From: Paraspadella gotoi
Taxonomy: Eukaryota > Animalia > Chaetognatha
Direction of reading: 5' to 3'
NCBI GenBank assembly: GCA_051294375.1
Contig: CM119264.1
Span: forward strand, 4,949,955-5,013,954
DNA: 64,000 nt
Shown: positions 983 to 58,100 of the stretch, in pieces
Numbering within the stretch: position 1 is the stretch's first letter
Layout of the letters: each line of letters opens with the position of its first letter
Translations under genes and position numbers: made by a program
The notes under the pieces: generated by a model
What the model was told of the DNA's origin: nothing
Databases searched by the model: none
The model's input: only the letters and a program-made list of their open reading frames with translations

Positions 983-3900
983 CTTCGACTGTGACTCTGA
1001 GTGTTTTAGTAAATTACTTAAAGAACTGAAACTTCCTGGAATACCAAGAAGCTGAAAATCGGGGAAATGGTTTAAAAAAATTTACTGTTGTACTGAAAAG
1101 AAATGGATATTTTTCATGTCCAAAAAGATTCAAAACACCATGAAATGGTCGGCTTTATTTTCCCAAAGCGGTCCATTTTTGATCCTTTATTATAGAATTT
1201 AATTCTTACCTTAATATTTAATATAAATATATTTATATAATATATATAAACATATATATATATATATATTTTTTTTTAAACTTGTAATCCTTAACCCTAA
1301 TCCTGAACTTTAATTTTTAACCCTAACCCCTAACCTTAAACCCTAATTCCTAATCCATAACCTAATCTTTAACCCTATTCACTAACCTAATCCTTATATT
1401 AAATCTCTAACTTAATCCTTAACCTTCTACCTAATTTTTAAAAAAAAAATTAACCTAACTCCAGTTTTAGGATGAAATGGGAAGTTCTGGACATTTACCT
1501 TAGCTTGAGCACTGTTATTTTTATGGATGTTTTGATTGGAAGAAGACTTTCCAGTTTCGTCATCGACAGAAATGGTTGGGGGAGCAAGCATCGTTCCACT
1601 ATGTTCGCCAGTGGGAGAATGGTTTCCGCCGTAAGTTTGACCTAATCAATATAAAAAAAAAAGGTTTTAACCAATTTCAACCAATTCGAACAAAGTAACA
1701 AAATTTTCAGTTTTAAAAACAGATTTGAAACTGTATTTTTCTTTTTTGATACTGACTAGCAGGTGGAGTCGATGTTCCAGAAATATTCTTGGCCCCGTAT
1801 GAATCGATCTGAGCAAGATCCGTTTGCGAACTGCTCCGACCCTGTCGTTAAAAAATATTTTTTCTAATGATTTATAAAGCCGGTAATTATCTATTAAAAA
1901 TTATAACGTAAGCTAAAAGCTGATTAAATCTTAAAGAAAGAAATTATACAAATTTATACAACTTGTAATAACAGTAATATAATTACTAATTATTAATCTA
2001 CTAACACCATAAATATACATTTATATTTACCTTTAAGTTTTTCGTTTCTACTTTTGAACTTTCCAGATTAGGAGCAGCTGAAAGAAAATTTAAATTTCTT
2101 TTTTTTTTTTGGAACATTGATAAATTTAATCTTGAAAGCAACTTAGTTCAATATTAGTCCTAGTTTAGCATCAATTGTTAAGTAAATCAACTCAAACAGT
2201 CATAAATTTTGCAGGAGAATCATCAAAATAAAATATGATTTATGATTCATTATCAAACTAAAATCATGAAAACAACTGTTATTTGATCCAAGATATCTAG
2301 CGAAGAAAAGCTATCATAAGCAGTATAGCGCGAACCACAGCAAACTTAAATTTGGAAAACCCAATCGAAAGTCTCATTGTAAAGAATGTTACTTGGTACC
2401 TTGAGGACCAAAACCTTTGGACTTCACGACCGTAAGAAAAAAACAAAAAAAAACAAATGGCAACATCTAATATAAACGGGACTGTGAGAGAGTCTTGATT
2501 GAAAGCTTGCAGGGACCTGCTATGTATTATCTTGTAAGAGTGATGGAGGCCTTAAACCACCAAAGCCTGTCCAAAGTCAGGGGCAAGATAGCTTATTTAT
2601 TAAATGAATGGATCATTTTTATATTGGTTGTACCAATTTCATAAAATTCAGCTCCTTGTATTTTGATGCTAGTGCGGAGTACAATAAGTATTCCCCGATC
2701 TAATACTTAAGGGAGTGGTCTTTTCATACAATTGAAACATTCTTTGAAATATTTTCCACTTCATTGATAGGGAAGCCAGGTACTCTGGGAGTGAATAAAC
2801 GAGACTGTGAGAGAGTCTTGATTGAAACCTTGCAGGGACCTGCTATGTCATTATCTTGTAAGAGTGATGGAGGCCTTAAACCACCAAAGCCTGTCCAAAG
2901 TCAGGGGCAAGATAGCTTATTTATTAAATGAATGATAATTTTTATGTTGGTTGTACCAATTTCATAAACAAATTAGGAGGAGAACTCAAGAGAAAAGCCC
3001 GGGAATCGAACCTCTGGTGGCGCAAGATGATCTTTAACAATAAAGAGGGGAACGGAACTTTCTCGATTTTCCTCATCCCCGAATTCCCAGGAAGTGTCGC
3101 TATCGAGACGAGATCGCTTGGGTAACATTCTTCAGACCGGATGCGGGGGAAACAAAAAAAATTGTTTGACCTTAAGACTTGAAAATCGAAAAGACAATAA
3201 ACATAGGACAAACAAAGCGCTACCTATTCAACTGCTCTTTAAAGGAATTACTACGAGGACGAGAGTTCTGTGTCTCGGCGTCGCACGAGCTATCGACTAT
3301 CAGCCGATGGGGGAAGAAAATGAAAAAAAGGAAACGTTACCAGTCCTTTATTGTCTTAAACCTTCAATGAGATATAATAACTACTGCTATCCTGCTCTTC
3401 ATATTATATAATTCCATAACTTATGCACAAGTTGTTATTGTGCGTATGTATTGTGTTCCTATTTTGACAAATAGACTGATTAATGAACAAATGTAGTTTT
3501 AAAATCCCCTTTAAAAGTTAGAGAGACTTCAAAGACAAACGCGCAAACTAAAAGTACTTATTCGCTACGTCTTCTTTCTTATTTTGTTAAATATCTGTGT
3601 TGAAAGTTAAACTTATACACTGATCACTGATCGGTTGATGACAGAAGAACTCACAACTGTCGCCCGCGTGGGAAGATTTCTTTCCGATTTCCGAGAGGGA
3701 TCGAATTCCTGGGAAACTTTGATGGTGCTTGGAACCGTGTTGGGAATTTTTCTTGTCATGTTGATGTCTGTGGCGCAGATTGACCAAATGCTCCCTCACC
3801 TGAAATAGGAAAGAGAAAAAATGAAATATTTTAGCAAGGACAAGGATCACTAGGGAAGCCCGGGGCTCAGTGACATGTCAGTGGCTTCGCTTCCTCATTG

Positions 3901-55100: not shown

Positions 55101-58100
55101 TTGGGTTTATTTTTATCATTCGGTACCGCAATTTTTAGGTACAAACTTCAAATAAATTTGCGATCATTATTAATAATTTAGTAGTACCGTTGATTGGTTT
55201 TCATTTAATAAATTAGCTATCTTGCCCCTGACTTTGGACAGGCTTTGGTGATTTAAGGCCTCCATTACTCTTGCAAGATAATGACAGAGCAGGTCCATCC
55301 AAGCTTTCAATCAAGACTTCCTCACAGTCTTGTTTAATGTTTATTGTTTATTAATGTTTATTTACTCCCAGAGTTCCTGGCTTTCCTATCAATGAAGAGG
55401 TATAATAATTCAAAGAATGTTTCAATTTGATGAAAAGACCACTCCCTTATTTTAGATACAAATATGCGTTACTCAAATGGGGAAATTCGATGCCATATAA
55501 TATATAATTTAAACGGAAGTTCGTGTGTTTTCAAAGAATGGCAGATTTTTATCTACCGTTTCAAACAAGAATCTCTTAATACAGAATCGTCGTCATCGTC
55601 TTTATCCTCGTCGCAACCTCGAGGTTGCCATCTTGTTTGCCATCTTCTGCCGTCAATGTCACTTCCGCGATGCCACACTCTGTCTCGGCGGTTCGACGGA
55701 GAAAGGGAGAAGGAGGTTAAAAATTTAATCATCCTTAAAAAGTTAAAAGAGGACGACAACAAACACAACAAGCAAGAGGAACGAGGAAAAAGGAGGAAAG
55801 AAACTGACAAAACAGTTTTGGGGAAATTCTAATTCGTATATATGCAATTGTGTATAACTGTATATAATTTAAGCTAAGTTTAAGCGAACACGGTCTTCCA
55901 AAAATCTTCTGTTGCCATCGTTATAATCTCGAACGCTTTCTTTTATTTTTATTTTTATTTCTTTTTTCTTGACCCGATGAAACTTTTTGCCTCGCGAGTA
56001 TCAGCCTCATATTTATCAACCTGTCTTTCTTTCTATCGTTCGTTCGTTTGTTTCTTTCTTTCTTTCTTTCTTTCTTTCTTTCTTTCTTTCTTTCTTTCTT
56101 TCTTTCTTTCTTTTTTCTTTCTTTCTTTCTTTCTTTCCTTCTTTCTTTCCTAGACACTTATCGAAAAAAATATCAACTGTCGTCGTGTTCATCGTCGTCT
56201 TCATTGTCGTCGTCGCCGCCTTTGAACTATTTCTCATGAATTCACCGCATGACTTTTTTGCTCGCTTCTCTCTCTCTCTCTCTCTCTCTCTCTCTCTCTC
56301 TCTCTCTCTCTCTCTCTCTCTCTCTCTCTGAAAAATAGATTTCGAGTATCGTCTAAGATACGATTTGCATGAATAAAGATGTACATTGTACAAGCGACGT
56401 ATCATAAGACATTTATATTAAAAATATTATACCGTACTTCATATATTATAATTTATATCATGAAATATATATAATAGATATAGTCTTATTTACTATTCGG
56501 GTCTGTTAAATTTAGTCAGGGATATATTACAGGCGAAAGGCGATTAAAGCCGATTACGTCTTGAACCAACCACAGTGATCAGAGCTAAAGTGAATCCCGT
56601 GTGAAAATATTCGTCGTGTCATCGTCGTTGTCATCGTCTTGGTCATCGTCATTGGTCATCATCGTTTTTCGTCGTCTTTGTTTTCATCGTCGATTGTCGT
56701 GTCGTTCGTCGTCGTCGTTGTCATCATCCTCTTTCATCGATGTTCGTTGTCATCGTCGTTCGTCATCGTCGTTCATCATCATCATTGTCACCATCCTCTT
56801 TTATCGTTGTTCTTTGTCGTCGTTCGTCGTCATTGTCATCATCCTCTTTCATCGACGTTTGTCGTCGTCGTTGTCATCATCCTTTTTCATCGACGTTCGT
56901 CGTCGTCGTTGTCATCGTCCTCTTTCATCGTCGTCGTTTGTCATCATCCTATTTCGACATCATTCCTCCTTTTCTCGGCGAAACAAAATCCCGCTTCGCT
57001 TCCATCGAATTCTCTTGAATTTATTGACAAAATTGAATTAATCTTTTTATTTTCGTCTGAGTTGATCGTCACATTATCATTGTTAACGGCAGGGACTCAT
57101 TCATCGAGGGGCCGTCGGGGTCGTCGTCGTCGTCGTCGTCGTCGTCGTCCATCGTCGTCGTCGTCGTCATTCGCCCTCCCCCTCCCCCCCCTCAGTCACC
57201 AACGTACTCGTTTCCCCTTCTTTCTTGCGTCGTTAACTTTAATGGTCGTAATTTCGAAATGTTACTTTTTTGACGGCGAATGTCTTTTTGATGGCGTTGA
57301 TTGCCATTTTCGACGGCATTGATTGCCACTTTTGATGGCGTTGATTGCCACTTTTCGATGCCAGCGTCTCATCTAATGGCGATCGTTGTCTCGTTGATGA
57401 CAGGACATGTCATTCGGATTAAAAACTTCGAAAATTATTTTAACGATTTTTTTTTTCCCGTCACCTAAGTTGGTCAGATTAAAGCGGAAAGTTGAGCGAC
57501 ATAAATGTTGGCAGAGATCGAGAGAAAGTGAACGAGGAGAAAAGCAAAGTAAATGAACTAGAGAGAGAGAGAGAGAGAGAGAGAGTCAGTAAACAGTTGC
57601 TCCGGCGATCACAAAACATGAGTTACCAATTCTGATTCTCGATTGACTTCAAGGATTAAGAAAGAAGAGCCAAAACAAAAACAATCCTAGTAAATAAAAA
57701 AACTTTAAAAAAACAAAACAAAACAAAAAACAAACAGAAGAAAAAACCTCCCCATCACCATACCTACCCCAGCCACAGCCCCCACTCCCTCCCCATCACC
57801 TACCCAGCCACAGCCCCCACTCCCACCATCTCCAAACTCACCAAACTCGGGCAGAGACTCCACAGAAAGACGACCTGATCGGGAGGCGTGTCTTCGTCGG
57901 CGGCGAGAAGTTTCCTTTCGGTCAGCGTCTCGTTTCGCGTATTCAACGACGATCGCTTCGTTGACTACGACGATCGGTCGTTCGTCGTTGACGCTGGCGA
58001 CTTTTACGTCGAATCGCGCCTCGATTTCGTTGACGCCGTCAGATGTCGGATGACGAAAGAGTCGGTCGACGTCTCTCGCCGTCGTGACGGTAGACGAGGC

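What the first reader, a model, noticed from the sequence alone, without database searches (positions are those of the whole stretch)
2527..55281. Four unrelated repeat families carry type-P5 twister ribozymes whose P1 is a loop-less palindrome
Seen in sequence: about 12 loci share the order P5 - ARG/AUG - P2' - GA - T1' - P1 - UAA - P2 - C-RCC - (P3) - P4[U-T1-AA-T2'] - P5'. Family A is at 2527, 2851, 49049, 50510, 55217 and decayed at ~25951; B at 14343 and 23041; C at 50070 and 27483; D at 30233 and 33601. Pairings covary between families: T1 is CCA/UGG, CCG/CGG, UCC/GGA or CGG/YCG; T2 is AC/GU in A and GC/GC in the consensus of the others; P2 is AC/GU, CC/GG, RC/GU or CCG/CGR; P4 and P5 differ entirely. 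Between T1' and the U^A site every family has only a self-complementary 6-8-mer (AGGCCU, GGCGCU, CGGCCG, UCCUAGGG), too short for a normal hairpin. Established: this matches the twister consensus in its P5 permutation; twister P1 can be shortened without losing cleavage; minimal Penelope hammerheads use a palindromic helix III and cleave as dimers. Inference: these are minimal twisters whose P1 forms between two copies, conserved or convergent across several mobile families. I do not know of this arrangement having been described.
Basis: partly seen in the sequence, partly recalled or inferred. Interest (0 to 1): 0.93.

Follow-up and report, generated by a model that had tools for sequence, protein, structure and literature searches.

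The report
Twister ribozyme variant with palindromic stem
Four very abundant repeat families in this animal genome carry the sequence pattern of the self-cutting twister RNA with one stem shrunk to a loop-less palindrome, so the RNA likely needs a second copy of itself to cut efficiently, though cutting and pairing are untested.

Summary
A descriptor that ignores P1 finds 9 of the 12 loci with at most two defects (shuffles: mean 0.7), and all 9 have a self-complementary 6-8-nt P1. The other three loci are decayed. Rfam aligns family A to Twister-P5 with the P1 loop deleted, but below its cut-off (25.8 against 37.6 bits).

Corrections: P4 is shared by A, B and C, so the ribozyme is probably one lineage spread among different carriers. 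C and D have TG…CA-type ends and 4-bp target duplications, like solo LTRs.

New support: a metagenome scan blind to P1 sequence gave 23 hits. The only one with a full twister fold (L129, a 976-nt circular-looking contig) has a different perfect palindrome. Phage and prokaryote scans gave no loop-less case.

Best reading: a compact type-P5 twister that likely cleaves best as a strand-swapped dimer, like minimal hammerheads. Against it: P1 is known to be dispensable, and cleavage, transcription and dimer formation are all untested. I found no description in six literature searches. This scan noted a related P5 twister in a clam Naiad before (e1-9935298).

The parts
2527..2591 (+). Family A twister-P5 core, no P3, P1 AGGCCU, predicted cut 2553/2554; in an internally shortened A element at 2465-2641
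2851..2915 (+). Family A core identical to the 2527 copy, 324 nt downstream on the same strand; element about 2698-2964
49049..49113 (+). Family A core, no defect in the descriptor, P5 shortened to 7 bp
50510..50574 (+). Family A core with private T1 and P5 mismatches; the family majority restores both
55217..55281 (-). Family A core with the conserved GA changed to AA
25951..26019 (+). Decayed A relative; palindrome, UAA, T1 and T2 broken
14343..14416 (+). Family B core, P1 GGCGCU, P3 an inverted repeat with a 1-3-nt loop, one T2 mismatch
23041..23114 (+). Family B core, P2 broken
50070..50146 (-). Family C core, intact, P1 CGGCCG, predicted cut 50125/50124
49998..50282 (-). Whole C element, 285 bp, TG...CA ends, TATA on both flanks, A/B-box-like stretch upstream of the ribozyme
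27483..27567 (+). Decayed family C core
30110..30356 (+). D element, 247 bp, TG start, ATTG on both flanks; decayed core at 30233-30316
33492..33706 (+). D element, 215 bp, TG start, ATAT on both flanks; core at 33601-33667 with 8-nt P1 UCCUAGGG

Best explanation
These loci carry a compact type-P5 twister fold whose P1 is a loop-less palindrome, and the RNA likely cuts itself at U^A, most efficiently when two copies pair through the palindrome. Shown: motif order, covarying P2, P4, P5, T1 and T2, the conserved GA, UAA and L4 bases, and five different palindromes. Inferred: the palindromes of two copies form one 6-8-bp helix with an active site at each end, so each core takes its GA/T1 half from one copy and its UAA/P4 half from the other (strand swap), as in dimeric hammerheads. 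Inferred further: a transcript that runs through two terminal repeats or tandem copies is cut at both sites and releases a unit-length RNA, while a single copy, for instance in a circle, is cut slowly.
For: Fold far above chance and aligned by Rfam with exactly the P1 loop deleted. The central pair of the palindrome, which no hairpin can form, changes on both sides: G-C in A and C, C-G in B, U-A in D, A-U in L129. A 6-mer is self-complementary 2.3% of the time in this window, its inner four bases 5.8%. L129 came from a scan that fixed only the P1 length. Family-wide variants restore or keep pairs: 50555 A>C in 97% and 50567 A>C in 95% of depth, 50122 C>T turns a P2 G-U into A-U. Closing P1 as a tetraloop costs 1.3-3.9 kcal/mol in the monomer; the P1 duplex adds 9.4, 8.6, 11.4 and 3.7 kcal/mol to the swapped dimer of A, B, C and L129. 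C and D have LTR-type ends, which would put two copies on one transcript; L129 is terminally redundant with one twister. Precedent: minimal hammerheads with palindromic helix III (PMC4209133).
Against: Twister without P1 cleaves at almost wild-type rate (PMC5408937), and P1 defects did not lower cleavage in a large screen of type-P1 twisters (PMC11662667), so the monomer may be fully active. One base pair plus a four-base loop could span the gap (inference). The L129 duplex is weak, and unconstrained cofolding gave the P1 duplex only for A and C, not for B, D or L129. Alternative monomer folds beat the pseudoknot-free active fold by 6-15 kcal/mol. 2 of 34 non-twister pattern hits were also palindromic, so L129 alone has about 6% chance. 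Only five independent P1 sequences; D rests on one near-intact copy. No two-LTR element was seen.
Confidence: 0.5

Rival explanations
1. The twister cuts as a monomer without needing P1. The palindrome is kept because it is a kissing loop that dimerises the element's RNA for packaging or reverse transcription, as 6-nt palindromic loops do in retroviruses (recalled).
For: Explains the symmetric changes and agrees with P1 being dispensable. LTR-type ends in C and D. B has a second near loop-less inverted repeat in P3 that drives its predicted dimer.
Against: The palindrome sits exactly in register as P1, its outer bases pairing next to the cut site in all five versions. Cleavage would sever the loop at its 3' edge.
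Confidence: 0.2
2. The twister cuts as a monomer and the palindrome has no job. It is what remains when the loop of a normal P1 hairpin is deleted, several times over, or is kept symmetric by template switching.
For: Deleting a hairpin loop yields a palindrome automatically (logic). Phage P5 twisters L001 and L004 have ordinary looped P1 stems that could be starting points.
Against: A, B, C and L129 share derived traits (6-nt length, 2-bp P2, AAG junction; identical flanks of T1/P1 in B-type and L129), which suggests one origin followed by symmetric substitutions. Decayed copies lose the palindrome (3 of 3), so it is not self-maintaining.
Confidence: 0.2
3. The fold is a relic or an inactive look-alike carried along by repeats that move without needing it.
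For: Below the Rfam cut-off. 8 of 12 window copies carry at least one core defect. Family A has Helitron-like rather than retroelement-like ends (label recalled).
Against: Covariation of both pseudoknots across families; family majorities restore the pairs; same architecture in L129.
Confidence: 0.1

Closest known systems
Type-P5 twister ribozyme (Rfam RF02684; class reviewed in PMC5408937, passages read)
   Same: Order of elements, GA, U^AA, P2, P4 with 8-nt L4, pseudoknots T1 and T2, open P5, optional P3.
   Different: 14 model positions of P1 are missing; P1 is a 6-8-nt palindrome with no loop; P2 has 2-3 pairs; score is under the gathering cut-off; found in high-copy animal repeats.
Minimal type I hammerheads of Penelope-like elements and animal retrozymes (PMC4209133, PMC6765202, PMC7761336; passages read)
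   Same: A helix next to the cut site is reduced to a palindrome, and two copies are thought to form it together.
   Different: Different ribozyme class. In hammerheads helix III is needed, whereas twister P1 is reported dispensable. No Penelope ORF could be linked here.
Schistosoma T-variant twisters of Perere-3 and the mini-twister (PMC8501958 passages; mini-twister as cited in PMC5408937)
   Same: Twisters in mobile elements with reduced or faulty P1.
   Different: Those are type P1 at the element's 5' end, with P1 completed by flanking host sequence. Here the ribozyme is internal, type P5, and P1 is self-complementary.
Plant LTR retrozymes (PMC7761336 passages; 10.64898/2026.07.22.740005 part 1 of 5)
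   Same: Ribozyme inside a few-hundred-base terminal repeat with 4-bp target duplications (C, D); circular RNA with one ribozyme (L129, inferred).
   Different: Those use type III hammerheads in plants. Here only solo units were seen, with no internal region, primer site or purine tract.
Clam Naiad 3' UTR motif (consensi Naiad_Scon and Naiad_Mmer in the supplement of PMC8557442)
   Same: P5-order twister-like core with self-complementary stretches between GA and UAA (read by eye); the paper's main text never names twister.
   Different: The segment is about 25 nt with two inverted repeats, T2 is CC/GG, T1 has a mismatch, and the host is an autonomous element.

Membership tests
Twister ribozyme, type P5 | P2 and P4 stems with termini in P5 | tested here: met
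   P2 2-3 bp, P4 3-6 bp in most copies (1 bp closing in D33601), P5 5-9 bp in intact copies.
Twister ribozyme, type P5 | Pseudoknots T1 and T2 | tested here: met
   four T1 types and two T2 types, paired in each family's best copy.
Twister ribozyme, type P5 | Conserved GA, U^AA and L4 U...AAG | tested here: met
   all three present in 8 of 12 copies.
Twister ribozyme, type P5 | P1 closed as an intramolecular hairpin | tested here: not met
   zero loop; tetraloop closure is unfavourable.
Twister ribozyme, type P5 | Rfam RF02684 gathering score 37.6 | tested here: not met
   25.8 bits for A, 24.2 for L129; B, C and D not listed at E up to 10.
Twister ribozyme, type P5 | Self-cleavage at U^A | not testable with these tools
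   No raw RNA reads were offered.
LTR-type element or LTR retrozyme (C, D) | TG...CA ends and 4-bp target duplication | tested here: met
   duplications in 3 of 3 copies with both ends; TG start in 3 of 3; exact CA end in C only, TA in both D copies.
LTR-type element or LTR retrozyme (C, D) | Two repeats around an internal region with primer site and purine tract | tested here: inconclusive
   None in the window; flank consensus at both C ends is weak (agreement about 0.4); no genome was held.
Penelope-like element pseudo-LTR (A) | Link to an RT / GIY-YIG reading frame | tested here: not met
   The 68-residue open frame through A found nothing; no RT or endonuclease family among 148 window ORFs.
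tRNA-derived SINE (B, C) | tRNA-related head with A and B boxes | tested here: inconclusive
   B-box-like matches in B and C, folded stretch with z -3.95 in C, but ARAGORN and Rfam find no tRNA and C has about 55 nt ahead of it.

The most novel reading that the evidence does not exclude
A widespread, undescribed subclass of twister that works as an obligate strand-swapped homodimer: it cuts only transcripts with two copies, is present at tens of thousands of copies in an animal, is swapped between unrelated mobile elements (LTR-type units, clam Naiads, circular RNAs), and defines animal LTR-type retrozymes that use twister instead of hammerhead.
Probability: 0.3. Interest if true: 0.9.

Novelty: new variant of a known kind. 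Interest (0 to 1): 0.73.

Why it matters
Dimer-dependent cleavage is known for hammerheads; I found no report of it for natural twisters. If true, two unrelated ribozymes arrived at the same copy-counting switch. The form falls under the Rfam cut-off, so a large pool of animal ribozymes may be unannotated, including in some Naiads, which were reported to lack canonical hammerheads. A 60-nt RNA and a few controls would settle it. If monomers cut well, the conserved palindrome still needs an explanation.

Tried and rejected
Whole-genome alignments: no genome held. Expression: no RNA holder listed; run X9 is only guessed to be RNA, and contigs cannot show ends. Family-wide variation was obtained for A and C only; B and D remain judged from two window copies each. 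Penelope origin of A from its open frame: no relatives, rejected as unsupported. A hammerhead core upstream of the A twister: considered by eye, no CUGANGA and no helix I, rejected. Loop-less form in phages: 0 of 120 loci read (about 260 estimated), 0 hits, 0 of 35, 0 of 11; one search gave 2 ordinary looped P5 twisters among 5. Prokaryote genomes: 0 of 12. These exact patterns are narrow, so blanks are weak. MAFFT alignment of the cores was out of register, so no covariance model or formal pair count was made and pairs were tabulated by script. Kinesin search placed the host only as an animal. String searches for the window's motifs in the Naiad consensi found none; 6 oyster and hemichordate 3' ends read by eye, one only partly shown, had no such core.
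Full report
Setting. The window is animal DNA: it holds exons of a tropomyosin, a kinesin motor, cadherin-like repeats with a C-type lectin, and a Band 3 domain. The kinesin matches KIF17/OSM-3 of many animals with no close relative. No genome is held.

Observation. All 12 loci are where stated. Rfam gives nothing at gathering score. At E up to 10 it lists three family A copies as Twister-P5 (25.4-25.8 bits, cut-off 37.6), aligned over the whole model with 14 P1 positions absent. My descriptor asks for P2, P4, T1, T2, GA, UAA and L4 and leaves the P1 segment free (3-30 nt). It finds 4 perfect hits against 0 in each of 20 shuffles, and 9 hits with at most two defects against 7 in total over 10 shuffles. 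All 9 have a self-complementary P1. The three remaining loci (25951, 27483, 30233) are decayed and have lost the palindrome. Only 4 of 12 copies are free of core defects.

Covariation. T1 occurs as CCA/UGG, CCG/CGG, UCC/GGA and CGG/YCG; T2 as AC/GU and GC/GC; P2 as GU/AC, GG/CC, GU/GC and CG/CG; P5 differs in each family. P4 is not independent: A, B and C share CCUG/CAGG. The element bodies show no significant similarity (best E 0.08), though B and C share short motifs around the ribozyme. I infer one ribozyme lineage in several carriers.

Family-wide data. Contigs of four public runs laid on 49900-50700 give summed depths near 1.36 million over the A core and 0.3 million over the C core, against 32-39 in the flank (run X1). 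The tool warns that this is no copy number; as an order of magnitude it suggests ten thousand copies or more. The majority letters repair this copy's T1 (543,720 of 559,592) and P5 (74,910 of 78,690), and a minor C variant turns a P2 G-U into A-U (7% in X1, 14% in X3). None of the 40 rows shown falls in P1, GA or UAA, but 54 further rows were not shown. B and D were not examined this way.

Carriers. D (30110-30356, 33492-33706) and C (49998-50282) start with TG, end in CA or TA, and have 4-bp duplications in 3 of 3 copies; many contigs break at both C ends. This is the signature of solo LTRs (recalled). No two-LTR element was seen. A has a fixed 5' end and no duplication; its open frame has no relatives, so its class is open. 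B's 5' end is unresolved.

Outside evidence. A metagenome scan that fixed the P1 length at six but not its sequence gave 23 loci. One, L129, passes the full descriptor, with P4 and P5 of six pairs and P1 CAAUUG; Rfam scores it 24.2 bits with the same gap. The contig has a terminal repeat of about 120 nt, giving a 976-nt circle or tandem unit. Among the 34 non-twister hits of the same pattern, 2 were palindromic, so this single case has about 6% chance; with the four window families the pattern is much stronger, but only five P1 sequences exist in all. Phage and prokaryote scans found no loop-less case and two ordinary P5 twisters with looped P1.

Mechanism. The central pair of a loop-less palindrome cannot form within one strand, yet it changes symmetrically (G-C, C-G, U-A, A-U). 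That points to pairing between two copies. In such a duplex each strand enters at one core and leaves at the other, so P2, T1 and P5 become intermolecular (inference). Nearest-neighbour energies without pseudoknots favour the swapped dimer over two active-fold monomers by 13.1, 11.7, 16.3 and 6.8 kcal/mol for A, B, C and L129 at standard state, but against the most stable misfolded monomers the gain is 0.5 kcal/mol for A and absent for the rest. Free cofolding gives the P1 duplex for A and C only. The main objection is that P1 is dispensable (PMC5408937; PMC11662667). With a 2-bp P2 the missing P1 may matter more, which is untested. I put the dimer-assisted ribozyme at 0.5, a monomer with a kissing palindrome at 0.2, a monomer with a functionless palindrome at 0.2 and an inactive relic at 0.1.

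Comparison and novelty. It works like a type-P5 twister with the design of minimal hammerheads (PMC4209133; PMC6765202). It fails two membership tests (hairpin P1, Rfam cut-off), so I file it as a variant, not a plain member. Six full-text searches found no description of a palindromic or dimeric natural twister. Seen as passages only: PMC11662667, PMC8501958, PMC6765202, PMC10085705, PMC5408937, PMC7761336, PMC13725137, PMC4209133, 10.1101/2022.07.19.500677; PMC8557442 as passages plus supplement parts 1, 20, 23, 26 and string searches; 10.64898/2026.07.22.740005 as part 1 of 5 plus passages. Roth 2014, Kosutic 2015 and Lunse 2017 were seen only as citations. Their alignments, closed preprint supplements and subscription papers could already hold such sequences; PMC7761336 mentions unpublished truncated twisters in RTE elements.

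Verdict. Real feature, new variant of a known kind, interest 0.73.

Noticed in passing
L129 (whole contig, twister at 394-439 minus): 976-nt terminally redundant contig with one loop-less P5 twister, about 61-65% paired, no hammerhead core found and only a 134-codon frame on the other strand; possible retrozyme-like or viroid-like circle.
   Followed up: partly
window 14375-14391 and 23073-23089: P3 of family B is an 8-bp inverted repeat around one base, a second near loop-less helix; it forms the predicted B dimer.
   Followed up: partly
window 50150-50230 (minus), 14289-14342, 30160-30215: A-box and B-box-like stretches upstream of the ribozyme in C, B and possibly D; in C it folds with z -3.95. 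A polymerase III promoter inside an LTR-type unit would recall Cassandra elements (recalled).
   Followed up: partly
window 2465-2641, 2698-2964: Family A starts A|TC, ends before T with a short hairpin near the end and has no target duplication, which is Helitron-like except for the 3' terminal letters; the 2465 copy is an internal deletion.
   Followed up: partly
window 55217-55281 and 50070-50146: The two copies on the same strand as the surrounding cadherin-like exons are A55217, which has lost the conserved G, and the intact C copy; most others are antisense.
   Followed up: no
window 50384-50587: A 68-codon open frame runs through the family A twister; no relatives found.
   Followed up: yes
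window 5880-6270, 9293-9648, 23223-23305, 32743-32782, 53485-53600: A fifth dispersed repeat with a GACA/GACC microsatellite core and no twister.
   Followed up: no
window 56177-58589 and 58615-61034: 2.4-kb tandem duplication at 95% identity across an N gap; possibly two haplotypes assembled in series.
   Followed up: no
L001:302-357, L004:293-359: Two ordinary phage type-P5 twisters (57.7 and 51.6 bits) with looped P1.
   Followed up: yes
PMC8557442 supplement, parts 20 and 26: Oyster and hemichordate Naiad 3' UTRs share a different conserved GC-rich motif that may be another structured RNA.
   Followed up: no
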